64,000 nt of DNA from Candidatus Omnitrophota bacterium (GTDB taxonomy: Bacteria > Omnitrophota > Gorgyraeia > Tantalellales > Tantalellaceae), in the NCBI GenBank assembly GCA_043813915.1, contig JBDRKO010000001.1, positions 835 through 64,834 on the forward strand, in the 5' to 3' direction. The position numbers and the translations under genes are program-made. This document shows positions 3,696 to 50,092 of the stretch, piece after piece; positions within the stretch are counted from its first letter, which is position 1, and each line of letters starts with the position of its first letter. The notes beneath the pieces are model-generated. The model was not told the origin of the DNA, searched no databases, and saw nothing but the letters and a program-made list of their open reading frames with translations.

Positions 3696-3746
3696 AATAG
3701 AACCTGTGTTTATTATAGCGTATAGAGTATAGCGTATAGAGAAAAA

Positions 3747-3830
3747 GTTTGTCGAGTTTGTAGTGTTTGTAGCGTTTGTTGAGTTAGCTCGACTGACGCT
3801 CTACTCTTTTAAACTGCCGTCTACGAACTC
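3747..3830. repeat. Family A palindromic repeat (GAGTTTGTAG x n ... CTACGAACTC), copy A1
   Basis: Left half tandem gagtttgtag-tgtttgtag-cgtttgtt, right half ctacgaactc; same architecture at 10831-10932, 34746-34842, 35096-35195. Confidence 0.7.
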
Positions 3831-4019: not shown

Positions 4020-4097
4020 ACCAGACCAAAAAGTTTAAAAGTCTAAATGTCGAAAGTCAAAAGGTCAAAAGTCTGTTGAGTAAAATTTCCCGGAAAT
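4020..4097. repeat. Family C partial copy (AGTCTAAATGTCGAAAGTCAAAAGGTCAAAAGTC ... GTTGAGTAAA)
   Basis: Direct ~10-bp subrepeats shared with 29741-29830, 49893-50092, 51938-52135. Confidence 0.6.
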
Positions 4098-10815: not shown

Positions 10816-10830
10816 ATCTTCCTCCTTATT

Positions 10831-10932
10831 TGAGTTTATAGGGTTTATCGCGTTTGTAGCGTTTGTCGGGTTTTCTTATCCGACGGAAACTCCATTGTCT
10901 ACTACGAACTATGAACTGCCAACTACGAACTC
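10831..10932. repeat. Family A palindromic repeat, copy A2 (inside rib operon, between ribBA and ribH)
   Basis: gagtttatagggtttatcgcgtttgtagcgtttgtcggg ... ctactacgaactatgaactgccaactacgaactc. Confidence 0.7.
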
Positions 10933-10937
10933 TTATT

Positions 10938-12143
10938 CTAGACCTTCTCTAACTTATGCCCCATCCTTTTCTTCTTAACTTCCAGATATTTTCTGTTCAT
11001 TTTGCCCGGGTTTGTCTCCAGCGGTATCCTTTTCGTTATACGCAGGCCGTAACCGCTAAGCCCTATGATCTTTCGCGGGTTGTTGGTAAGAAGTTTTATC
11101 TTTTTAAGACCCAGGTCCGCCAATATCTGCGCACCTATACCGTAATCCCTGAGATCCGCTTTGAATCCGAGCTGTTCGTTAGCCTCTACCGTATCCAGTC
11201 CGGAATCCTGAAGCTGATACGCTTTTATCTTATTAAGGATGCCTATACCCCGCCCTTCCTGGGCCAGATAGAGGATAACACCTTTACTTTCGCGCGCGAT
11301 CATTTTCATCGCTAGTTCAAGCTGATCCCCGCAATCGCATCTGAGAGAATGAAATATATCTCCCGTCAGGCATTGAGAATGGACCCTGACTATACTCTCT
11401 CCCTTGGTCACGTTTCCCATGACGAGAGCCAGATGCTGATAATCATCAAGTTTGGAGGTGTACGCGTGCAGACGGAACGTCCCGAACGGTGTAGGCAGTT
11501 CCGCTTCGGCCACCTTTTCTATCAATTCCTCTTTTGCCCGTCTGTAACGGATAAGGTCTTCTATCGTACATATCTTGAGACCGTGTTTTTTTGTGAATTT
11601 CATTAAGTTAGGCATCCTCGCCATGGTCCCGTCCTCGTTCATGATCTCGCATATCACTCCAACGCTCGACAATCCCGCAAGTTTCATCAGATCGACACTC
11701 GCTTCGGTATGCCCGGCGCGGACAAGCACTCCGCCTTTTTTTGACCGCAGAGGGAAAATATGTCCCGGTCTGACAAAATCTCTGGCTCTGGAAGCCGGGT
11801 CGGCAAGCATTTTTATCGTTCTGGCCCTGTCATGCGCGGATATACCCGTTGTCACCTTTTCCGCCGCGTCCACGGATACGGCCCAGGCCGTTTTGAACGG
11901 ATCCTGCCGATCGGCCGACTGCGACATAAGGTGCAGGCCCAGTCTATCGGCGATCATGTCGTTCATGGGTACGCATATAAGTCCTCTGCCGTGTTTAGCC
12001 ATAAAATTGACCTTTTGGGGTGTGATCTTTTCGGCGGAAGCAATAAGGTCCCCCTCATTTTCCCTGGAAGGATCATCCACAACCACGACCATACGGCCTG
12101 CTTTAAGGTCTTTTACGGCTTCTTCTATCGTATTGAGTTTCAT
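10938..12143 (-). CDS. ribBA: Bifunctional 3,4-dihydroxy-2-butanone-4-phosphate synthase / GTP cyclohydrolase II
   Basis: 401 aa; DHBP synthase N-half (DDPSRENEGDLI) and GCHII C-half (CDCG zinc motif); AAGGAAAGG RBS upstream. Confidence 0.9.
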   Translation of the reverse strand: MKLNTIEEAVKDLKAGRMVVVVDDPSRENEGDLIASAEKITPQKVNFMAKHGRGLICVPMNDMIADRLGLHLMSQSADRQDPFKTAWAVSVDAAEKVTTGISAHDRARTIKMLADPASRARDFVRPGHIFPLRSKKGGVLVRAGHTEASVDLMKLAGLSSVGVICEIMNEDGTMARMPNLMKFTKKHGLKICTIEDLIRYRRAKEELIEKVAEAELPTPFGTFRLHAYTSKLDDYQHLALVMGNVTKGESIVRVHSQCLTGDIFHSLRCDCGDQLELAMKMIARESKGVILYLAQEGRGIGILNKIKAYQLQDSGLDTVEANEQLGFKADLRDYGIGAQILADLGLKKIKLLTNNPRKIIGLSGYGLRITKRIPLETNPGKMNRKYLEVKKKRMGHKLEKV

Positions 12144-12164
12144 GCCTTTCCTTATGTTCCTGTC

Positions 12165-12315
12165 ACTTCACATATACCCCGGCCTGAAGGCCGGGGTTTG
12201 TTTGCCCTGCCTGTCCCGAGCTTGTCGAGGGGAGCGAAGCCGAAGGGTTTACAATTGATCCTGTTTTTCCTTGCTCTGAAACACGGGGCTTAGACGGGGC
12301 GAACGGGTTAAAAAA
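12165..12315. repeat. Family D structured repeat, copy D1 (in ribBA leader, downstream of riboswitch terminator)
   Basis: ataCCCCGGCCtgaaGGCCGGGGtttgtttGCCCTGCCTGTCCCGAGC...GAGGGGAGC...GGGGCGAACGGG; homologous copies 37150-37345 and 44400-44545. Confidence 0.7.
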
Positions 12316-12500
12316 AAGACCCCCGAACACATACTTCAGGGGTCTTTTTTAAAACTTCTCTTCTCCCATCCCGGCTTTACGGTCGGTACCCGATTTTCGC
12401 GGGTTCAGGCCTTTTATTAAAGGCCTCGCGGACTTATCCCCGGTCTGCCCGGAGAAACACCGCCGGCTAAGGACTTTCCCCGTCTAAGCTGGGATCACCT
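12311..12500 (-). promoter_or_regulatory. FMN riboswitch (RFN element) with intrinsic terminator expression platform
   Basis: Minus-strand sequence CUUCGGGGUAAGGUGAUCCCAGC...AGCCGGCGGUG...GUACCGACCGUAAAGCCGGGAUGGGAGAAG matches conserved FMN aptamer blocks (compare B. subtilis ...UUCCCGACCGGCGGUA...AGCCGACAGUGAAAGUCUGGAUGGGAGAAG); followed by AGACCCC...GGGGUCU hairpin plus U8 at 12318-12350. Confidence 0.75.
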
Positions 12501-12699
12501 TACCCCGAAGTTCTTAATGATTTTAACATACATTGACCATAAGTCAATACGTTATCTCTTGCTTGTCTAACCGTCATTGCTCTCTACGATCGCGACCCGA
12601 TTCCGTCATTGCAAGAAGGCGCCGAGAACGTAATGTTCGAGGTGTGCCGAGACCTCCGGGCGAGGCCCGCAGACCGACGCGGCAATCTCTTTCGAATTA

Positions 12700-12885
12700 T
12701 CAAAACTGCCTGTATACGCTCACTTCGTTCGCGAGATCCTTCGTCTCATCCTCACTTGGCTCGGCTTCGCTCGGGATAAATTCGACCATATAACTTGCGT
12801 TCACTTCGTTCCGCAAGAGATCCCTCGCTTCGCTCGGGATAAATTCGACCATATAACTTGCGTTCACTTCGTTCCGCAAGTTATG
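12700..12885. repeat. Tandem 63-bp direct repeat (about 2.5 copies) immediately downstream of groEL
   Basis: cttcgctcgggataaattcgaccatataacttgcgttcacttcgttccgcaag appears identically at about 12766-12818 and 12829-12881, with a diverged partial copy 12709-12765. Confidence 0.8.
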
Positions 12886-12892
12886 GTCTCAT

Positions 12893-14557
<1,665 letters not shown>

Positions 14558-19775: not shown

Positions 19776-19857
19776 ACATTCCCCCTATGAAACACCTAAT
19801 TAACAAAAAACCCGGCTTTAATATCAGCCGGGTTTTTTAATTCCTGATAACGGGTAA
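19776..19857. repeat. Direct repeat copy 1 (includes bidirectional terminator AAAAAACCCGGC...GCCGGGTTTTTT)
   Basis: About 75 bp identical to 20074-20155 apart from 1-2 nt; stem-loop 19811-19832 flanked by A6/T6. Confidence 0.8.
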
Positions 19858-20073: not shown

Positions 20074-20155
20074 GTTTCCCCCCATGAAACACCTGATTAA
20101 CAAAAAACCCGGCTTTAATATCAGCCGGGTTTTTTAATTCCTGGTAGCGGGGGAC
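20074..20155. repeat. Direct repeat copy 2; its hairpin (20102-20135) is the terminator just 3' of tRNA-Met
   Basis: atgaaacacctgattaacaaaaaacccggctttaatatcagccgggttttttaattcctg. Confidence 0.8.
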
Positions 20156-20218
20156 GGGATCGAACCGTCGACAACACGGGTATGAGCCGTGCGCTCTAAC
20201 CAGCTGAGCTACCCCGCC
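20142..20218 (-). tRNA. tRNA-Met (anticodon CAT; elongator type or possibly tRNA-Ile2/lysidine)
   Basis: Hand fold: GGCGGGG acceptor (G1:U72), D-arm GCTC/AGCTGGTTA, anticodon stem CACGG with loop CTCATAC, T-arm GACGG/TTCGATC/CCGTC, encoded CCA. Confidence 0.8.
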
Positions 20219-20342
20219 AAGTTAAGCTTTTTATGAGCCATCATTATATTCTAAAGCCTCACCCTTGTCAATGCAAGGGTACGGAAGATCTCAATCAGCA
20301 CAGAGCATAAAGTTTGCCGAGTTTGTAGGGCTTGTTGGGCTG

Positions 20343-20457
20343 TATTAACTGATGTTTCATTAGTGAATGCTGAAATAGAAAAAGAACCAACGTCCACATG
20401 CCCAGGATATGGGGACATTTCCCAACGGGAAGTGTCCCGTTTGCGGCTCTATTAAGT
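20343..20457. repeat. Family B element, left inverted copy flanking TauE gene
   Basis: About 88% identical to reverse complement of 21225-21338 over about 105 bp; contains GGGACATTTCCC-aac-GGGAAGTGTCCC. Confidence 0.8.
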
Positions 20458-29740: not shown

Positions 29741-29830
29741 AAAAAAGGTCTGCTGAGTAAAGTTACCTGAAACCAGTTACCGGTTGCCAGACCAAAACAG
29801 TCTAAAAGTCGAAGGTCTAAAGGTCTAAAG
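29741..29830. repeat. Family C element, short copy
   Basis: ctgagtaaagttacctgaaaccagttaccggtt...agtctaaaagtcgaaggtctaaaggtctaaagacccgttgagc. Confidence 0.65.
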
Positions 29831-30697
29831 ACCCGTTGAGCTCAAATGCTGCGCTTTATGTGCCCGGAAAACATTTCTCATCAAGATGGATACCGTTACA
29901 GGCCCCACTCCTCCGGGTACGGGAGTTATGACCGACGCCTTTTTCTCAACTTCTGAAAAGGCCACGTCCCCCACTATCTTGTCCTCCACCATGTTTATGC
30001 CGACATCTATGACAACTGCCCCTTCGGAGACCCACTCACCTTTGATCATTTCGGGACATCCGACCGCCACTACCAGCACATCAGCCCTTCCGACATGCTC
30101 GGATAAATAACCTTTTTCTGATGTAGCTATATTGCACACCGTTGTCGTAGCCATCTCGTTCAGCATCAGGAGACTTAAAGGTTTTCCGACTACCGCGGAC
30201 CCTCCGACTATTACCACTTCTTTACCGTAAAGGTCTATCTTTTCCGCGCTTAATATCTTCATTACAGCGCCCGGAGTACATGCTACAAGATCGGCTTCAT
30301 GACGCAATATTTTGCCCAGGTTGTAAGGATGCAGCCCTTCGGCATCTTTTCGGGGATCGATCGCGGCTATTATCCTATCATGGTCAATGTTTTCCGGTAC
30401 GGGTTTCTGTACGATTATCGCGGTGACGAAGATATCCTTATTGAGTTTTTCTATTTCCCGGATCAGATCTTCTTGTGACAGATCGGCTTCAAGCCGTATA
30501 TCCTCAAAATCTATACCGACTTTTTCCGCGGTACGTTTCTGCATATTAACGTATATTTCGGCGTCTTTGGGGCTACCAAGGGTCAACGACGCAAGTTTCG
30601 GAACGCGTCCTACGGCCGCGGAAATTTCCTTGATACGTTTTTTCACGGATTCGTTGATCTCTGCCGCGATCTTTTTCCCGTCAATGATCTTTGCCAT
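29825..30697 (-). CDS. folD: Bifunctional methylenetetrahydrofolate dehydrogenase/methenyltetrahydrofolate cyclohydrolase
   Basis: 290 aa; FolD signatures (TPGAVMKIL, VVIVGGSAVVGKPLSLLM). Confidence 0.9.
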   Translation of the reverse strand: MAKIIDGKKIAAEINESVKKRIKEISAAVGRVPKLASLTLGSPKDAEIYVNMQKRTAEKVGIDFEDIRLEADLSQEDLIREIEKLNKDIFVTAIIVQKPVPENIDHDRIIAAIDPRKDAEGLHPYNLGKILRHEADLVACTPGAVMKILSAEKIDLYGKEVVIVGGSAVVGKPLSLLMLNEMATTTVCNIATSEKGYLSEHVGRADVLVVAVGCPEMIKGEWVSEGAVVIDVGINMVEDKIVGDVAFSEVEKKASVITPVPGGVGPVTVSILMRNVFRAHKAQHLSSTGL

Positions 30698-34037: not shown

Positions 34038-34730
34038 TTAATGATCTAAATGGTCTTTGTCATCCCGCCGCGCCAGCAGGTCAGGGCGCCTCTCTTTTGT
34101 CTTGGCGAGTGCCTGCTCTGTCCTCCATTTGCCGATCTTTTTAGGGTCTCCGCACAGAAGGACTTCCGGGACCTCCATATCCTTATATTCCGAGGGACGC
34201 GTGTACTGGGGATATTCCAGCATATTTTTCTCGAAAGACTCTTCCAAAAGACACTCCGCGTCCCCAAGCACCCCCGGAATAAGACGGATAACGGAATCAC
34301 AGATCATCATAGCCGGGATCTCTCCGCAGGTGAGAATATAATCCCCCGCGGATATTTCCGCGTCTACCAGGGTCCGTATCCGTTCGTCAAAGCCCTCATA
34401 ATGTCCGCAAATAAGCACTATATGTTTCTCTACCGATAGCCGCTTGGCATATGCCTGATCATAGCGCTCTCCCTGAGGTGTAAGCAGCACTACTTTTGTT
34501 CCCGGACCTTTCAACTCGGCGATAGCTCTGTCTACCGGCTCGATCTTCATTACCATACCCGGACCGCCTCCGTAAGGCTTGTCATCCGCCGTTCTATGCC
34601 GGTCATCCGTCCAGTCACGCAGATCATGTATGACTATCTCGGCTTTCCCGGCATTGCGCGCTATTTTCAACATAGAGTGGTCGAACACGCCCTCGAACAT
34701 CTCGGGGAACAATGTAAGCACATCAATTTT
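34038..34730 (-). CDS. trmD: tRNA (guanine37-N1)-methyltransferase
   Basis: TrmD motifs (IDVLTLFPEMF, GGGPGMVM); start probably the non-ATG LVKIDV rather than the track ORF N-terminal extension, which reads through the repeat. Confidence 0.85.
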   Translation of the reverse strand, partial: KIDVLTLFPEMFEGVFDHSMLKIARNAGKAEIVIHDLRDWTDDRHRTADDKPYGGGPGMVMKIEPVDRAIAELKGPGTKVVLLTPQGERYDQAYAKRLSVEKHIVLICGHYEGFDERIRTLVDAEISAGDYILTCGEIPAMMICDSVIRLIPGVLGDAECLLEESFEKNMLEYPQYTRPSEYKDMEVPEVLLCGDPKKIGKWRTEQALAKTKERRPDLLARRDDKDHLDH

Positions 34731-34745
34731 CACAAGACCTCGATC

Positions 34746-34842
34746 AGTTCGTAGTAGGTAGTTCATAGTTCGTAGCAGGACCGATCCTGCACTCCAAATG
34801 GCACACTCCGACTACGAACTACGAACACTGAACTACCAACTA
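34746..34842. repeat. Family A palindromic repeat, copy A3 (between rpsP and trmD, where rimM normally sits)
   Basis: agttcgtagtaggtagttcatagttcgtagc ... gactacgaactacgaacactgaactaccaactag. Confidence 0.7.
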
Positions 34843-34843
34843 G

Positions 34844-35083
34844 TTATATTTCCAACCGTTTTATTATGCTCTTTACCGTATCGGACGGCAATGCCCCGTT
34901 CTTCAGCCAGTATTCAACGCGTCCTCTGTCCAAAGTCACCTGTTCTTTGCCTTTTTTCGGATCATAGTGACCCAGTTCTTCCAGAGCTTTTCCGTCCCGT
35001 TTAGTTGATTTTGTCATCGCTACTATGCGATAAAAAGGCTTCTTTTTTGTTCCGAACACCTTGAGCCTCAATACTACCGACAT
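34844..35083 (-). CDS. rpsP: 30S ribosomal protein S16
   Basis: 79 aa; MSVVLRLKVFGTKKKPFYRIV bS16. Confidence 0.9.
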   Translation of the reverse strand: MSVVLRLKVFGTKKKPFYRIVAMTKSTKRDGKALEELGHYDPKKGKEQVTLDRGRVEYWLKNGALPSDTVKSIIKRLEI

Positions 35084-35095
35084 CCTTCCTCCTTG

Positions 35096-35195
35096 TTTGA
35101 GTTTATAGTGTTCATAGAGTTCCTCGAGTTTGTTGGGTTATATTGCCCGCTGCTCTATTTCTCCCAACTACGAACTATGAACTACAAACTGCTAT
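35096..35195. repeat. Family A palindromic repeat, copy A4
   Basis: tgagtttatagtgttcatagagttcctcgagtttgttggg ... ccaactacgaactatgaactacaaactgc. Confidence 0.7.
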
Positions 35196-36457
35196 ACTTT
35201 AATTCTTTCTATTTCCGCGCCCACCGCGGATAGTTTACTTTCTAAATGCTCATATCCTCTGTCGAGATGATATATCCTGGATATCTCCGTACGCCCTTTG
35301 GCTACCAGACCGGCCAGGACCAAAGCCGCCGAGGCCCTAAGGTCCGAGGCCATTACGGGAGCTCCGCTGAGCTCCTTCACCCCTTTGATTATGGATGTGG
35401 GCCCTTCCAATATTATCTCCGCACCCATTCTATTAAGTTCGCTTATATGTATAAAGCGCTCCGGGTATATCTTTTCGGTAATAACGCTTATCCCTCTCGA
35501 AACGGCAACAAGGCTCATCATCTGGGCCTGCAAGTCCGTAGGGAAACCCGGATAGGTCAAAGTCGTGATATCCGTTGCCTGCACATCGGCCGTCCTGCGA
35601 GATACTTTTAATCCGCCGGGGATCTCTTCTATCTCGGCCCCGCATTCCGTAAGTTTGTCAATAAGAGCGAGATTATGTTCGTATACCGCGTTCTCCAGCA
35701 TAAGCTCCCCGCCGGTGATGACAGCCGCTATCATATATGTCCCGGCCTCTATCCTGTCGGGAATAACCTCATGTTCCGCGCCATGAAGCTCCCGCACCCC
35801 TCGGACATTCAATGTAGGCGTCCCGGCGCCCCTTATATCCGCCCCCATCTTTTTCAAAAAATTCGCGAGATCCGATACTTCCGGTTCGCAGGCGGCATTC
35901 TCGATCACCGTCTCTCCTTCGGCAAGCACGGCGCACATAAGTGTATTGGCCGTCGCCAGGACACTCGAACCGAAGTGTCCGCCCAGATATATTCTTTTCC
36001 CTTTCAGTGCTTTTGCCGTGGCCTTTATATATCCGCCGTCGATCTGTATTTCCGCGCCCAGCGCGCGTAATCCTTTAAGGTGCAGATCTATGGGCCTTGG
36101 CCCTATGACGCATCCTCCGGGAAAAGAGACCTTTGCCTCTTTGTTCCGCGCCAGAAGCGGACCCAGCACAGAAATAGACGCCCTCATAGTGCTTACTAGG
36201 TCATACGTCGCGGTCGCTTCTTTTATCCTTCCTTCCGAGACGGTCACTGTACTGCCGCTTTTTTCTATCTTTCTGCCCAAAGAGGAAAGAAGCGCGATCA
36301 TCGTATATACATCTTTCAGGTCCGGCACATTGCGGATAACGCTCTTCTCTTCCGACAGCAAAGTAGCCGCCATGATAGGAAGGCACGCATTCTTAGCTCC
36401 GCTGACGCGTATAGTACCCTTTAAAGCCTTACCGCCCTTTATGACAAGACTATCCAA
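35192..36457 (-). CDS. murA: UDP-N-acetylglucosamine 1-carboxyvinyltransferase
   Basis: 421 aa; MurA/EPSP-like fold. Confidence 0.9.
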   Translation of the reverse strand: MDSLVIKGGKALKGTIRVSGAKNACLPIMAATLLSEEKSVIRNVPDLKDVYTMIALLSSLGRKIEKSGSTVTVSEGRIKEATATYDLVSTMRASISVLGPLLARNKEAKVSFPGGCVIGPRPIDLHLKGLRALGAEIQIDGGYIKATAKALKGKRIYLGGHFGSSVLATANTLMCAVLAEGETVIENAACEPEVSDLANFLKKMGADIRGAGTPTLNVRGVRELHGAEHEVIPDRIEAGTYMIAAVITGGELMLENAVYEHNLALIDKLTECGAEIEEIPGGLKVSRRTADVQATDITTLTYPGFPTDLQAQMMSLVAVSRGISVITEKIYPERFIHISELNRMGAEIILEGPTSIIKGVKELSGAPVMASDLRASAALVLAGLVAKGRTEISRIYHLDRGYEHLESKLSAVGAEIERIKV

Positions 36458-37148
36458 TCTTCCATCCTATTATGACCCGTTCGTATCCGTTCTCATCCTG
36501 AAAGCCGTCCACATTTATAAAACCGTTAATACGAAATTCTTCTTTCATCCTGCCGGCCTGATCGTATCCGACCTCGACGGCCGTAAACCCGCCCGGACGG
36601 AGCATTTTTCCGCTCTCTTGCGCTATGCGCCTGAGGATCTTCATCCCGTCACGTCCTCCGTAAAGCGCCTGTTTGGGTTCCGCCAGCACCCACGCGTCCA
36701 GCTTTCCGTAATCTTTCTCGGAGACATACGGCGGATTTGATATGACCGCGTCAAAAGTGCCCTCTTCTTCTTCCGTGAACGCAGAGAACATATCCGAAAC
36801 GCGCAGTTCTATCCTAACGGCCAGACCGAATTTAGCGACATTGAAGCGCGCGACATCAAGCGCGTCCGGCGAAATATCCGCCGCGACCACTTTTCCGTCC
36901 GCGAACAACGACGCGACCCCTAAAGCGGCGGCACCGCTACCCGTCCCTATATCTGCGACCTTGGGATCGGTGATCTCTTTTTCTTTCAGAAGGCCGCATG
37001 CCGTCGAGACCAAAATTTCCGTTTCAGGACGGGGAATAAGCACTCTGCCGTCGACCATCAGTTCCATTCCCATGAATACAGAACGTTTCTCTTGGTATTG
37101 TATGGGAACTTCCTCGTCGTAATCCTTCATCATCGGTCCGTTAGTCAA
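36450..37148 (-). CDS. prmC: Release factor glutamine N5-methyltransferase (HemK)
   Basis: 232 aa; DIGTGSGAAAL SAM motif and NPPY. Confidence 0.85.
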   Translation of the reverse strand: MTNGPMMKDYDEEVPIQYQEKRSVFMGMELMVDGRVLIPRPETEILVSTACGLLKEKEITDPKVADIGTGSGAAALGVASLFADGKVVAADISPDALDVARFNVAKFGLAVRIELRVSDMFSAFTEEEEGTFDAVISNPPYVSEKDYGKLDAWVLAEPKQALYGGRDGMKILRRIAQESGKMLRPGGFTAVEVGYDQAGRMKEEFRINGFINVDGFQDENGYERVIIGWKIG

Positions 37149-37149
37149 T

Positions 37150-37345
37150 TCACCGATACCCCCGGGGCTTGCTTGCCCTGCCTGCCCCGCCTGTCCCGAG
37201 CAAAGCCGAGGGGAGCTTGTCGAGGGGAGCGAAGCCGAAGGGTTCCAAATTGATCCTGCAATGTCCCGAGCAAAGCGAGGGGAGCCCCGGCTATTTTCCC
37301 TCCGCTAGAGCACGAGCCTCCACCGGGGCGAACGGGTCAAAGAAC
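37150..37345. repeat. Family D structured repeat, copy D2 (between prfA and prmC, with internal duplication of the CCCGAGC...GAGGGGAGC block)
   Basis: caccgatacccccggggcttgcttGCCCTGCCTGCCCCGCCTGTCCCGAGC...GGGGCGAACGGG. Confidence 0.7.
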
Positions 37346-44399: not shown

Positions 44400-44545
44400 A
44401 TAGACCCGTCAATTCACCGATACCCCGGTCTAAAGACCGGGGATTGCTTGCCCTGCCTGCCCCGCCTGTCCCGAGCACCGCGAGGGGAGCCCCGGCTATT
44501 TCCACCACGCTAAAGCACGGGGCTTCGCCGGGGCGAATGGGTCAA
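44400..44545. repeat. Family D structured repeat, copy D3 (between mgtC and bactofilin gene)
   Basis: caccgataCCCCGGTCtaaaGACCGGGGattgcttGCCCTGCCTGCCCCGCCTGTCCCGAGC...GGGGCGAATGGG; hairpin carries compensatory changes relative to D1. Confidence 0.7.
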
Positions 44546-44609
44546 GTGTCTAAGGTGTTATTATAATATAAAAACCGCCGGAGCGGTACTTTTTTTCTGC
44601 CGCGTCCGT

Positions 44610-49838: not shown

Positions 49839-49892
49839 TCGTATCTACCTTCCGGAGTTCGCGTTCGTCCGGCTGTTTTGTAATCACATAGT

Positions 49893-50092
49893 CAAACAGT
49901 CGAAATGTCGAAAGTCTAAAGGTCCGTTAAGTAAAGTTACCAGAAACCGGTTACCAGTTACCAGAGTCTTAACCTTAGTGCTACAGTCAATCCCGCTAAG
50001 AGAAACCAGTTTCCAGAACCTGTTACCTAAAAAAACTTAGATCGCTGGTTGCTGGTAACAGGCAACTGGTTACTTTTCCCTTTTCACCAAAT
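49893..50092. repeat. Family C element, left arm of about 200-bp inverted repeat bracketing gatC-gatA
   Basis: Reverse complement aligns at about 93% identity with 51938-52135 (ggtatttggt...aaccagttgcctgttaccagcaaccagcgatctaagttttttt...ggtaactggtaaccggtttctggtaactttactta...). Confidence 0.85.

What the first reader, a model, noticed from the sequence alone, without database searches (positions are those of the whole stretch)
12165..12315. Family D: about 150-bp structured element with compensatory base changes, always between co-directional genes and in one orientation
Three copies (12165-12315, 37150-37345, 44400-44545) share the blocks GCCCTGCCTG(CCCCGCCTG)TCCCGAGC, GAGGGGAGC and GGGGCGAA(C/T)GGG. 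Their 5' hairpin differs between copies in a base-pair-preserving way: CCCCGGCC-tgaa-GGCCGGGG in D1 against CCCCGGTC-taaa-GACCGGGG in D3. That covariation argues for selection on secondary structure, so either an RNA element or a DNA cruciform. All three lie in the same orientation relative to the surrounding minus-strand transcription, inside operons (ribBA leader, prfA-prmC spacer, mgtC-bactofilin spacer). It could be an RNA stability or processing element, or a REP/BIME-like repeat.
Basis: partly seen in the sequence, partly recalled or inferred. Interest (0 to 1): 0.6.

Follow-up and report, generated by a model that had tools for sequence, protein, structure and literature searches.

The report
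Oriented modular intergenic repeat, Omnitrophota
The three "family D" sequences are copies of a roughly 210-base, GC-rich repeat scattered between genes of an uncultivated Omnitrophota bacterium; it looks like a small mobile DNA element carried along in the host transcripts, and the claimed base-pair covariation does not hold up once more copies are examined.

Summary
The three copies are real: D1 12162-12311, D2 37144-37340, D3 44408-44545, all on the + strand. Nine further copies came from one metagenome. The full element is about 205-214 nt, and full-length copies are 90-95% identical. D1 and D3 are internal-deletion derivatives whose breakpoints lie in internal direct repeats. D2 has lost the 5' hairpin.

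The covariation argument fails. Against it stand several disruptive changes and three hairpin deletions. Pairing is no better than in shuffled controls, and RNAalifold finds no compensatory pair on either strand.

The orientation bias is real: 12 of 12 loci have the same orientation relative to the flanking genes. However, every gene in the window is on the minus strand and GC skew is uniform, so transcription and replication cannot be separated.

D2 is a lineage-specific insertion into a prfA-prmC junction that overlaps or is 12 nt long in relatives. Another copy sits in the last codons of an nrdD gene. Downstream genes share no functional theme.

Best reading: a non-autonomous mobile repeat of the REP/BIME, BOX or MITE kind, possibly moved as single-stranded DNA and co-transcribed passively. 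A roughly 50-nt core recurs in other phyla, always in the same orientation relative to genes. That recurrence is unexplained.

The parts
12162..12311 (+). D1, an internal-deletion derivative (about 150 nt) of the family. It lies in the ribBA 5' UTR between the FMN-riboswitch terminator and the ribBA ribosome-binding site. The ribBA start codon is at 12141-12143 on the minus strand.
   Evidence: nhmmer E=5e-38; context
12177..12196 (+). Hairpin H1 of D1 (CCCCGGCC-TGAA-GGCCGGGG). On the + strand it is followed by TTTGTTTG and scores as terminator-like for antisense transcription.
12198..12250 (+). Minimal core of D1 (TTGTTTGCCCTGCCTGTCCCGAGCTTGTCGAGGGGAGCGAAGCCGAAGGG). It includes a hairpin with tandem G.A mismatches, CCCGAGC-TTGT-CGAGGG, at 12215-12231. 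This is the part shared with loci from other phyla.
37144..37340 (+). D2, a near full-length copy (197 nt) that fills the prfA-prmC spacer. Hairpin H1 is collapsed to CCCCCGGGG (37159-37167). Tandem-G.A hairpins are at 37195-37212 and 37265-37281.
   Evidence: E=2e-65; shown to be an insertion
44408..44545 (+). D3, an internal-deletion derivative (138 nt) between the mgtC terminator (44574-44587) and the bactofilin start (44379). H1 is at 44423-44442. The tandem-G.A hairpin is at 44470-44486. The outer hairpin arms are at 44489-44496 and 44527-44534. The inner hairpin is at 44503-44522.
12317..12352 (-). Intrinsic terminator of the FMN riboswitch expression platform (GACCCC...GGGGGTC followed by U8). 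It is not part of the element but marks its upstream boundary: D1 begins right after the U-tract.
   Evidence: read from sequence; the loop is too long for the scan

Best explanation
Family D is a lineage-specific, non-autonomous interspersed repeat of a Candidatus Omnitrophota genome. It is a small mobile or formerly mobile DNA element of the REP/BIME, BOX or MITE kind, not a structure-selected regulatory RNA.

Anatomy, read on the transcribed (minus) strand:
- a T-rich left flank ending in TTNAC;
- CCATTCG;
- a nested hairpin with outer arms GCCCCGGC...GCCGGGGC and inner hairpin CCCCGTGC-TTTA-GCGCGGGG;
- a variable array of roughly 15-nt units (CCCTCG-N4-5-GCTC) and 9-nt units (GGGACAGGC);
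- AGGGCAAGCAAG;
- a second hairpin CCCCGGTC-TTTA-GACCGGGG;
- the constant end TATCGGTGAATTGAC.

Shown. Copies are 90-95% identical. They differ by deletions between internal direct repeats and by mostly disruptive point changes. They sit in short spacers, or in the last codons, of unrelated housekeeping genes. At least one copy, D2, is an insertion relative to other Omnitrophota. All copies have the same orientation relative to the genes. The element has no U-tract terminator on the transcribed strand and no predicted promoter.

Inferred. From the missing terminator and its position, the element is co-transcribed with its neighbours. It probably spread by a strand-specific mechanism, most plausibly single-strand, hairpin-guided transposition by a trans-acting HUH/Y1 enzyme as in IS200/IS605 or REP-RAYT. 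That would tie its orientation to the replication strand, and so to the almost uniformly co-oriented genes. Alternatively or in addition, the opposite orientation is removed by selection, because on that strand hairpin H1 plus a T-rich tail resembles a terminator. Stop codons in all three frames within the first 52 nt of the transcribed strand make insertion at gene 3' ends tolerable.

I put about 0.6 on 'selfish or neutral interspersed mobile repeat', and within that about 0.25-0.3 on the single-strand HUH mechanism specifically.
For: Copy number and spread:
- There are 3 copies in 64 kb, plus 9 independent copies in metagenome Ga0180007 and duplicates of the same loci in NCBI, ENA and Logan assemblies.
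- Contigs often break at the element (L011, L014, L010).

Sequence variation:
- Full-length copies are 90-95% identical.
- D1, D3, L016 and L019 are deletion derivatives whose breakpoints fall in the repeated TGTCCCGAGC / CGAGGGGAGC units.
- Hairpin H1 is deleted in 3 of 12 copies and mismatched in 5 others.

Insertion:
- prfA and prmC overlap by 1 nt, or are 12 nt apart, with the same gene order in Omnitrophota relatives that have 57-59% identical prmC. The window has a 199-nt spacer filled by D2, with the prfA stop and prmC start intact.
- In L013 the element lies in the last codons of an nrdD large ORF and replaces its tail with 63 element-encoded residues. Removing 204 nt restores an ATGA stop/start overlap with the next ORF.
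- In L015 and L024 the upstream ORF also ends inside the element.

No regulon logic:
- The downstream genes are ribBA, prmC, bactofilin, a gltD-like oxidoreductase, an M29 peptidase, hflX, PPDK and others.

Orientation:
- 12 of 12 loci share the same orientation.

Architecture compatible with hairpin-guided single-strand transposition:
- Two similar hairpins (8-bp CCCCG... stems, TTTA loops) lie in direct orientation near the two ends.
- The right end (TTGAC) is constant, while the left-flank pentamer varies (TTGAC, TTAAC, TTCAC, TTTAC). The two are identical in only 4 of 10 copies, so this is not a target-site duplication.
- The strand that would be the 'top' strand is the G-rich strand. The + strand has GC skew of -0.11 to -0.19 across the whole window. 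That fits the lagging-strand-template bias reported for IS608 and ISDra2 (PMC5027513).

Other:
- Stop codons occur in three frames at nt 4, 36 and 50 of the transcribed strand.
- H1 of D1 scores as a + strand terminator.
- No Rfam, Pfam or NCBIfam family matches.
Against: - No transposase, RAYT or autonomous parent element carrying these ends was found. I could not search the rest of the genome.
- No empty or filled site pair exists at nucleotide resolution. The nearest relatives are only about 60% identical in prmC.
- There is no target-site duplication, and the terminal inverted repeat is only imperfect.
- The half nearest the downstream gene's ribosome-binding site is 3-4 times better conserved than the distal third (2-5% against 9-15% divergence from consensus). 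Only part of this can be ascertainment from the 21-nt search pattern. It could reflect function.
- The orientation lock (12/12) is much stronger than the roughly 60% reported for BOX, RUP and SPRITE (PMC3049150).
- The core motif recurs in other phyla in the same orientation relative to genes. A purely replication-based explanation does not obviously predict this.
Confidence: 0.6

Rival explanations
1. A functional cis-acting RNA module in the 5' UTR or intercistronic region. Transcribed with the operon, it would act as a processing or stability element or as a translation-initiation context for the downstream gene. Examples: a GC-rich hairpin as a 5' stabiliser after cleavage at the conserved GA|AUU in GGUGAAUUGAC, a stand-by site, or a Shine-Dalgarno (SD)-like GGUGA.
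For: - Sense orientation is strict (12/12).
- The constant end lies 10-35 nt from the downstream start codon in most copies, and in three copies no other obvious SD is present.
- The ribosome-binding-site-proximal 130 nt are much better conserved than the distal third.
- There is no terminator on the transcribed strand.
- Core-like motifs in other phyla are also in sense orientation.
- Comparable effects are documented for ERIC, Correia and BOX repeats (PMC3049150).
Against: - There is no covariation on either strand.
- The hairpin next to the ribosome-binding site is deleted in 3 of 12 copies and mismatched in 5.
- Modules are lost by slippage without any pattern.
- Folding energies are ordinary for the composition.
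- Downstream genes have no common function.
- Distances to the upstream stop codon are just as short, as expected for any insertion into short spacers.
- One copy disrupts the end of a coding region.
- Other Omnitrophota do without the element at the same junction.
Confidence: 0.17
2. A DNA-level host element. Arrays of 9-nt and 15-nt units plus hairpins would serve as binding or structural sites, for example for a nucleoid protein, gyrase or IHF as at BIMEs. Alternatively they would act as an insulator that terminates antisense transcription entering from the downstream gene.
For: - The sequence is periodic, with GCCCTGCCT/GCCCCGCCT units and GAGC-N4-CGARGG units.
- Hairpin H1 of D1, with its T-rich tail, scores as a terminator on the antisense (+) strand.
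- The genome carries several other oriented oligomer-repeat families in intergenic regions.
- The tandem G.A hairpins and G.T pairs are favourable only on the + strand.
Against: - Only D1 has a T-tract good enough for the terminator scan. The family consensus is CTTGCTTG.
- H1 is dispensable.
- There is no evidence for any binding protein.
- Copy-to-copy decay looks neutral.
Confidence: 0.1
3. A classical double-strand MITE with terminal inverted repeats, moved in trans by a DDE transposase.
For: - There is an imperfect inverted repeat, CTTGCCCTGCCTGCCCCG ... CGGGGCGAATGGGCAAG, that closes the element in + strand folds.
- Size, copy number and intergenic location are typical of MITEs.
Against: - There is no target-site duplication. 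The flanking pentamers match in only 4 of 10 copies, and the mismatch is one-sided.
- About 35 nt (GTCAATTCACCGATA plus H1) lie outside the inverted repeat.
- A strict single orientation is not expected for cut-and-paste double-strand insertion.
Confidence: 0.08

Closest known systems
BOX elements of Streptococcus pneumoniae (boxA-boxB(n)-boxC)
   Same: Both are small (under 250 nt) modular intergenic repeats with conserved end modules and a variable number of internal short modules gained or lost by slippage. Both are predicted to form stem-loops, are co-transcribed with neighbours, and have no coding capacity (PMC3049150).
   Different: There is no sequence similarity. BOX elements show only about 61% strand bias and are enriched between convergent genes, whereas D is 12/12 in one orientation between co-directional genes. 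BOX mobilisation has been linked to the inverted repeats of ISSpn2. No partner is known for D.
REP/BIME elements and their RAYT (Y1 HUH) transposases; IS200/IS605-derived hairpin elements
   Same: All are GC-rich imperfect hairpins in intergenic DNA arranged as mosaics. D has two similar subterminal hairpins in direct orientation, no target-site duplication, a short conserved penta-nucleotide at one end with a similar but variable one in the opposite flank, and an orientation consistent with the lagging-strand-template bias of single-strand transposition (PMC5027513).
   Different: No Y1/RAYT gene was found. There is no conserved GTAG head as in classical REPs. Guide-sequence/cleavage-site complementarity could not be demonstrated. 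The left-flank pentamer is degenerate, whereas IS608 strictly needs TTAC.
Correia (NEMIS) elements of Neisseria and ERIC elements of enterobacteria
   Same: These are 100-200-nt palindromic repeats inserted close to genes and co-transcribed. They can supply processing sites or alter the expression of neighbours (as summarised in PMC3049150).
   Different: Those elements have clear terminal inverted repeats, a TA duplication in the case of Correia, and occur in both orientations. D has none of these features.
Rickettsia palindromic elements (from my own knowledge, not tested here)
   Same: They are short palindromic repeats that can sit in frame inside protein-coding genes. The D-like core does the same in a CPR ftsK linker and in an ACL-like ORF.
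   Different: Rickettsia palindromic elements are 100-150 nt and restricted to Rickettsia. The core seen here is 27-54 nt and scattered across phyla.

Membership tests
Structure-selected cis-regulatory RNA (Rfam-type family) | Base pairs maintained by compensatory changes across copies | tested here: not met
   one compensatory cell in 232; 84.5% paired against 84.3% in shuffles; 179 of 500 shuffles do as well; 0 compensatory pairs and a positive covariation term on both strands.
Structure-selected cis-regulatory RNA (Rfam-type family) | Match to a curated RNA family | tested here: not met
   no Rfam 15 family matches at any copy. Only the neighbouring FMN riboswitch and tRNAs are found.
Structure-selected cis-regulatory RNA (Rfam-type family) | Association with a coherent set of regulated genes | tested here: not met
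   the downstream genes are ribBA, prmC, bactofilin, a gltD-like gene, an M29 peptidase, hflX, PPDK and small ORFs.
IS200/IS605-type single-strand element (non-autonomous derivative) / REP-RAYT | Subterminal imperfect hairpins at both ends on the same strand | tested here: met
   CCCCGTGC-TTTA-GCGCGGGG lies near the left end and CCCCGGTC-TTTA-GACCGGGG near the right end, in direct orientation, 18 nt and 15 nt from the respective boundaries.
IS200/IS605-type single-strand element (non-autonomous derivative) / REP-RAYT | Insertion 3' of a specific tetra- or penta-nucleotide, without target-site duplication | tested here: inconclusive
   the left flank is TTGAC, TTAAC, TTCAC, TTTAC or CTTGC, and the right end is TTGAC in 10 of 12 copies. 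There is no duplication, but the flank is degenerate and no empty sites were available.
IS200/IS605-type single-strand element (non-autonomous derivative) / REP-RAYT | A Y1 HUH transposase (TnpA or RAYT) encoded in the genome, with matching ends | not tested
   Only 64 kb plus short loci were available.
IS200/IS605-type single-strand element (non-autonomous derivative) / REP-RAYT | Top strand preferentially on the lagging-strand template | tested here: inconclusive
   the putative top strand is the G-rich, gene-sense strand throughout. This is consistent with the feature but fully confounded with transcription direction.
BOX-like modular repeat | Conserved terminal modules flanking a variable number of short internal modules | tested here: met
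   the ends are shared by all complete copies, and 1-4 internal GAGC-N4-CGARGG units and 1-2 GCCYGTCCC units are present.
BOX-like modular repeat | Sequence homology to boxA, boxB or boxC | not tested
   No BOX sequences were compared. The host phylum and base composition differ, so homology is not expected.
Classical TIR-MITE | Terminal inverted repeats at the very ends plus a target-site duplication | tested here: not met
   the inverted repeat is internal and imperfect, about 35 nt lie outside it on one side, and the flanking pentamers match in only 4 of 10 copies.
Integron attC site | Inverted core sites RYYYAAC ... GTTRRRY at the two ends | tested here: not met
   the ends are direct (TTNAC ... 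TTGAC), not inverted, and the flanking genes are core housekeeping genes.

The most novel reading that the evidence does not exclude
The roughly 27-54-nt core (sense strand CCC(A/T)TTCG-ACAAGCTC-(A/G)GGGCA(A/G)GC, with optional extra units) could be a tiny hairpin element of very broad host range that enters transcribed DNA in one orientation only. The antisense strand folds as a hairpin with tandem G.A mismatches. It occurs in intergenic DNA of Acidobacteriia and Bacteroidales MAGs, and in frame inside the hypervariable linker of ftsK in CPR bacteria and inside an ACL-like ORF in a MAG labelled Gammaproteobacteria. Family D would then be a lineage-specific, expanded composite built on that core, because the two ends of the 27-nt form are the two ends of D's large palindrome. 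If so, this would be a previously undescribed cross-phylum class of miniature mobile or templated insertion whose orientation follows transcription rather than replication.
Probability: 0.12. Interest if true: 0.75.

Novelty: new member of a known kind. Interest (0 to 1): 0.35.

Why it matters
The result corrects a tempting inference. One compensatory pair between two copies of a young repeat is not evidence of a structured RNA.

It documents, for a phylum with no cultured model (Omnitrophota), an abundant interspersed repeat. It occurs about once per 20 kb in this window. It breaks metagenome assemblies at intergenic sites, sits inside operons and riboswitch leaders, and can rewrite gene 3' ends. 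Annotation pipelines and RNA-motif screens on such genomes should mask it.

The strict orientation, and the recurrence of its core in other phyla in the same orientation, give a concrete handle for asking whether small hairpin repeats are placed by replication-coupled single-strand transposition or by something coupled to transcription.

Tried and rejected
- Rfam at gathering and E-value thresholds on the window copies and on full-length copies from other loci found nothing at the element. A sub-threshold GA-cis hit (18 bits against a 34.7-bit cut-off) lies in a different repeat at 12814-12895.
- Pfam and NCBIfam on all six reading frames of D2 found nothing.
- A search of 5.8 billion proteins with the longest open frame of D2 found no hits. 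The element is therefore not being called as protein elsewhere.
- The genome-collection scan with a 21-nt pattern found no full D element outside this lineage. It returned 7 single hits, of which about 3 are chance and 4 share the core.
- Viral-contig scans gave only chance-like hits. Plasmid blastn gave no match.
- A literature search for peptide strings and for DNA strings of the motif found only unrelated primers.
- A promoter inside the element was rejected. No sigma-70-like site is predicted, and TTGAC at the end is too close to the start codons to be a -35 box.
- attC, dif, group II intron and hammerhead readings were rejected on anatomy.
- An intron-like reading for the nrdD copy in L013 was rejected. 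The downstream piece has its own SD and ATG. Removing the element restores a stop/start overlap between two ORFs, not a fused ORF.
- Attempts to extend beyond the window through neighbouring proteins returned only short contigs.
- A special relation to the ribosome-binding site was down-weighted, because distances to the upstream stop codon are similarly short.

Full report
**1. The observation**

The three sequences exist on the + strand. After alignment their limits are D1 12162-12311, D2 37144-37340 and D3 44408-44545. The shared blocks are far above chance. GCCCTGCCTGYCCCG gave 5 matches against 0.27 expected. GTCCCGAGC-N5-GAGGGGAGC gave 3 against 0.13.

- ribBA is at 10938-12143, with an FMN riboswitch at 12354-12516 on the minus strand (Rfam, 70 bits). 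A sigma-70-like promoter lies at 12547-12520.
- A prmC-like methyltransferase and prfA flank D2.
- Bactofilin and mgtC flank D3.

D1 begins directly after the U-tract of the riboswitch terminator. D3 lies downstream of a terminator-like hairpin after mgtC.

Two details differ from the description. D2 has no 5' hairpin, only CCCCCGGGG. And the three copies are not equivalent, because D2 contains both the middle module of D1 and that of D3.

**2. More copies**

The organism is a Candidatus Omnitrophota MAG. The identical prmC protein occurs on a 133-kb contig, and the same loci appear in GCA_018817765.1, ERZ27247128 and SRR6514274.

A 21-nt pattern scan of one genome per species found no full element elsewhere. 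A metagenome scan found ten loci with the element, nine of them new and all from metagenome Ga0180007. Several contigs end inside the element.

The 12-sequence alignment A2 shows a full-length form of 205-214 nt in D2, L013, L015, L018, L023 and L024. These copies are 90-95% identical pairwise. D1, D3, L016 and L019 are internal-deletion derivatives whose breakpoints fall in the repeated units TGTCCCGAGC and CGAGGGGAGC. That is the signature of slippage or recombination between short direct repeats.

**3. Structure and covariation**

- Paired cells were 84.5%, against 84.3% in shuffles.
- One cell had a change on both sides, and 179 of 500 shuffles did as well.
- H1 is entirely deleted in 3 of 12 copies and carries a mismatch in five others.

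RNAalifold found no compensatory pair on either strand, with penalising covariation terms of +0.51 and +1.94. Minimum free energies of whole copies are ordinary for their dinucleotide composition, with z from -3.5 to +1.9 on both strands. Stems are not better conserved than their neighbours.

The copies are too similar for a powerful covariation test. What variation exists is mostly disruptive.

**4. Position and orientation**

All credible genes in the window are on the minus strand: 59 of 61 long ORFs, the other two overlapping real genes. The + strand has GC skew of -0.11 to -0.19 throughout. 'Between co-directional genes' is therefore uninformative here, and orientation relative to transcription cannot be separated from orientation relative to replication.

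In the nine extra loci, found by a strand-blind search, the element is again antisense-labelled in the same way relative to both neighbours. That makes 12 of 12. Flanking gene identities were confirmed by Pfam. The bias is real, with two-sided p of about 5e-4 against no bias.

On the transcribed strand the element ends 10-35 nt before the downstream start codon in most copies. It also begins within 0-60 nt of the upstream stop or terminator in most copies. This is what any insertion into short spacers would give.

Downstream genes are functionally unrelated.

**5. Evidence that it is an insertion**

In two other Omnitrophota lineages (prmC 57-59% identical) the order rho-rpmE-prfA-prmC-murA is conserved. 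There prfA and prmC overlap by 1 nt or are 12 nt apart. In the window the prfA stop and the prmC start are intact and 199 nt apart, and D2 fills the gap.

In L013 the element lies in the last codons of an nrdD large ORF (Pfam NRDD positions 1-526 of 562). The ORF then runs 63 codons into the element. Removing 204 nt restores ...KEDLSQEGVTV* with an ATGA overlap onto the next ORF.

In L015 and L024 the upstream ORF also terminates inside the element. The transcribed strand has stop codons in all three frames at nt 4, 36 and 50.

**6. Anatomy relevant to mechanism**

On the transcribed strand the parts, in order, are:
- a left flank YTTT-N-AC;
- CCATTCG;
- an outer hairpin (GCCCCGGC...GCCGGGGC) enclosing an inner hairpin CCCCGTGC-TTTA-GCGCGGGG;
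- arrays of roughly 15-nt and 9-nt units;
- AGGGCAAGCAAG;
- hairpin CCCCGGTC-TTTA-GACCGGGG;
- TATCGGTGAATTGAC.

The two TTTA-loop hairpins are alike and in direct orientation. The right end is nearly invariant. The left-flank pentamer varies, and it equals the right-end pentamer in only 4 of 10 copies, so it is not a target-site duplication.

On the + strand the ends form an imperfect inverted repeat, CTTGCCC...GGGCAAG and GCCCCG...CGGGGC, which closes the predicted fold. The first unit forms a hairpin with tandem G.A mismatches, CCCGAGC-loop-GCGAGGG. This motif occurs seven times in the window against about 0.6 in shuffles, and also outside D and on the other strand.

No promoter is predicted in any copy. 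H1 of D1, but not the family consensus, scores as a + strand terminator.

This anatomy resembles the ends of IS200/IS605 elements: subterminal hairpins on one strand, insertion 3' of a short specific sequence without duplication, and lagging-strand-template bias (PMC5027513). It also resembles REP/BIME mosaics, and its modularity resembles BOX elements (PMC3049150). The partner enzyme was not found, and I could not look for it genome-wide.

**7. An unexplained gradient**

Divergence from the consensus is 2-5% over the 130 nt nearest the downstream gene and 9-15% over the distal third. The 21 columns of the search pattern are fixed by ascertainment, but the neighbouring 15-nt end and the internal units are not. 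This may reflect constraint on the ribosome-binding-site-proximal half, biased gene conversion, or hypermutability of the distal hairpins. It is the main observation that keeps a functional reading alive.

**8. Cross-phylum core**

Of the hits from the 21-nt genome-collection scan, four extend well beyond the seed in a profile search: L001 (Acidobacteriia) at 37.8 bits, L007 (Bacteroidales) at 29.5, L002 at 28.8 and L006 at 18.9. A fifth locus, L017/L022 (20.2 bits), came from the metagenome scan. Seed-only hits score about 10 bits.

In all five cases the TTGCTTGCCCTGCCTG strand is antisense to the flanking or host genes, as in D.

In L002 the motif lies in frame in the hypervariable linker of an ftsK gene. 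Close homologues (84-93% identical, Yanofskybacteria-like CPR) carry in the same linker one of three states: no motif, a 27-nt form GCCCATTCGACAAGCTCAGGGCAAGCC, or the roughly 54-nt form. The two ends of the 27-nt form are the two ends of D's large palindrome.

I have no tested explanation for this distribution. The full-text literature search by sequence strings found nothing describing it.

**9. Verdict**

Family D is a real, abundant, oriented, modular interspersed repeat of an Omnitrophota lineage. The claim of selection on secondary structure is not supported.

The best-supported explanation is a non-autonomous mobile repeat of the REP/BIME, BOX or MITE kind that is passively co-transcribed. 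Its orientation would be set by a strand-specific insertion mechanism, by selection against the terminator-like orientation, or by both.

It is a new member of a known kind and of moderate-to-low interest. Its value lies in the orientation lock and the cross-phylum core, both of which can be tested by a genome-wide census.

Noticed in passing
window 3746-3807, 10824-10885, 20302-20354, 35091-35152; 10901-10931, 34811-34841, 35167-35197; 4027-4074, 29786-29833, 49885-49924: Several other families of short tandem oligomer arrays occur in intergenic regions, all in one orientation in this window: a 9-mer AGTTTGTAG type, a 7-mer ACTACGA type and an 8-mer AAAGTCTA type. Around rpsP (34680-35210) the 7-mer arrays occur as inverted pairs that would form roughly 30-bp hairpins both upstream of the Shine-Dalgarno sequence and after the stop codon. 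In L023 the 9-mer family is in the opposite orientation relative to genes.
   Followed up: partly
window 12764-12880 (minus strand reads ...ATCCCGAGCGAAGCGAGGGATC...): A perfect 54-nt direct repeat occurs twice, 63 nt apart, between groEL and the ribBA promoter. Each copy carries the same tandem-G.A hairpin motif as D, but on the transcribed strand. A sub-threshold Rfam GA-cis hit (18.4 bits, cut-off 34.7) lies here.
   Followed up: partly
window 19779-19854 and 20076-20151, next to tRNA-Met at 20142-20218 (-): A 76-nt direct repeat (95% identical) includes a terminator-like hairpin (AAAAAACCCGGC...GCCGGGTTTTTT). One copy abuts the 3' end of tRNA-Met. It looks like a duplicated tRNA-flank, possibly an att-like scar of an integration event.
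   Followed up: no
whole window: Gene-strand bias is extreme: all credible genes over 64 kb are on the minus strand. The + strand has a uniform GC skew of -0.11 to -0.19 and a negative AT skew in every 4-kb window.
   Followed up: partly
L013 1576-4647: nrdD appears to be split in this lineage. A large ORF covers Pfam NRDD positions 1-526 of 562. A separate roughly 60-aa ORF with its own SD and ATG carries the glycyl-radical motif (..EVFSRVTGFFRPVQSWNKGK..). nrdG follows. The D element sits at the junction.
   Followed up: partly
L002 5168-5218; L044, L045, L043 (ftsK linker); L006 7098-7149; L001 784-924; L007 3125-3198; L017/L022: A 27-54-nt GC-rich core related to the centre of D occurs in MAGs from other phyla: CPR, and MAGs labelled Gammaproteobacteria, Acidobacteriia and Bacteroidales. 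It is always antisense-labelled in the same way relative to genes, and twice lies in frame inside ORF linkers. Close ftsK homologues differ by presence, absence and length of the motif.
   Followed up: partly
L015, just downstream of the element: A 17-codon ORF (MKLLGVILIGAGMWLLK*) starts 4 nt after the element end, ahead of the M29 peptidase gene. It may be a leader or small membrane peptide, or chance.
   Followed up: no
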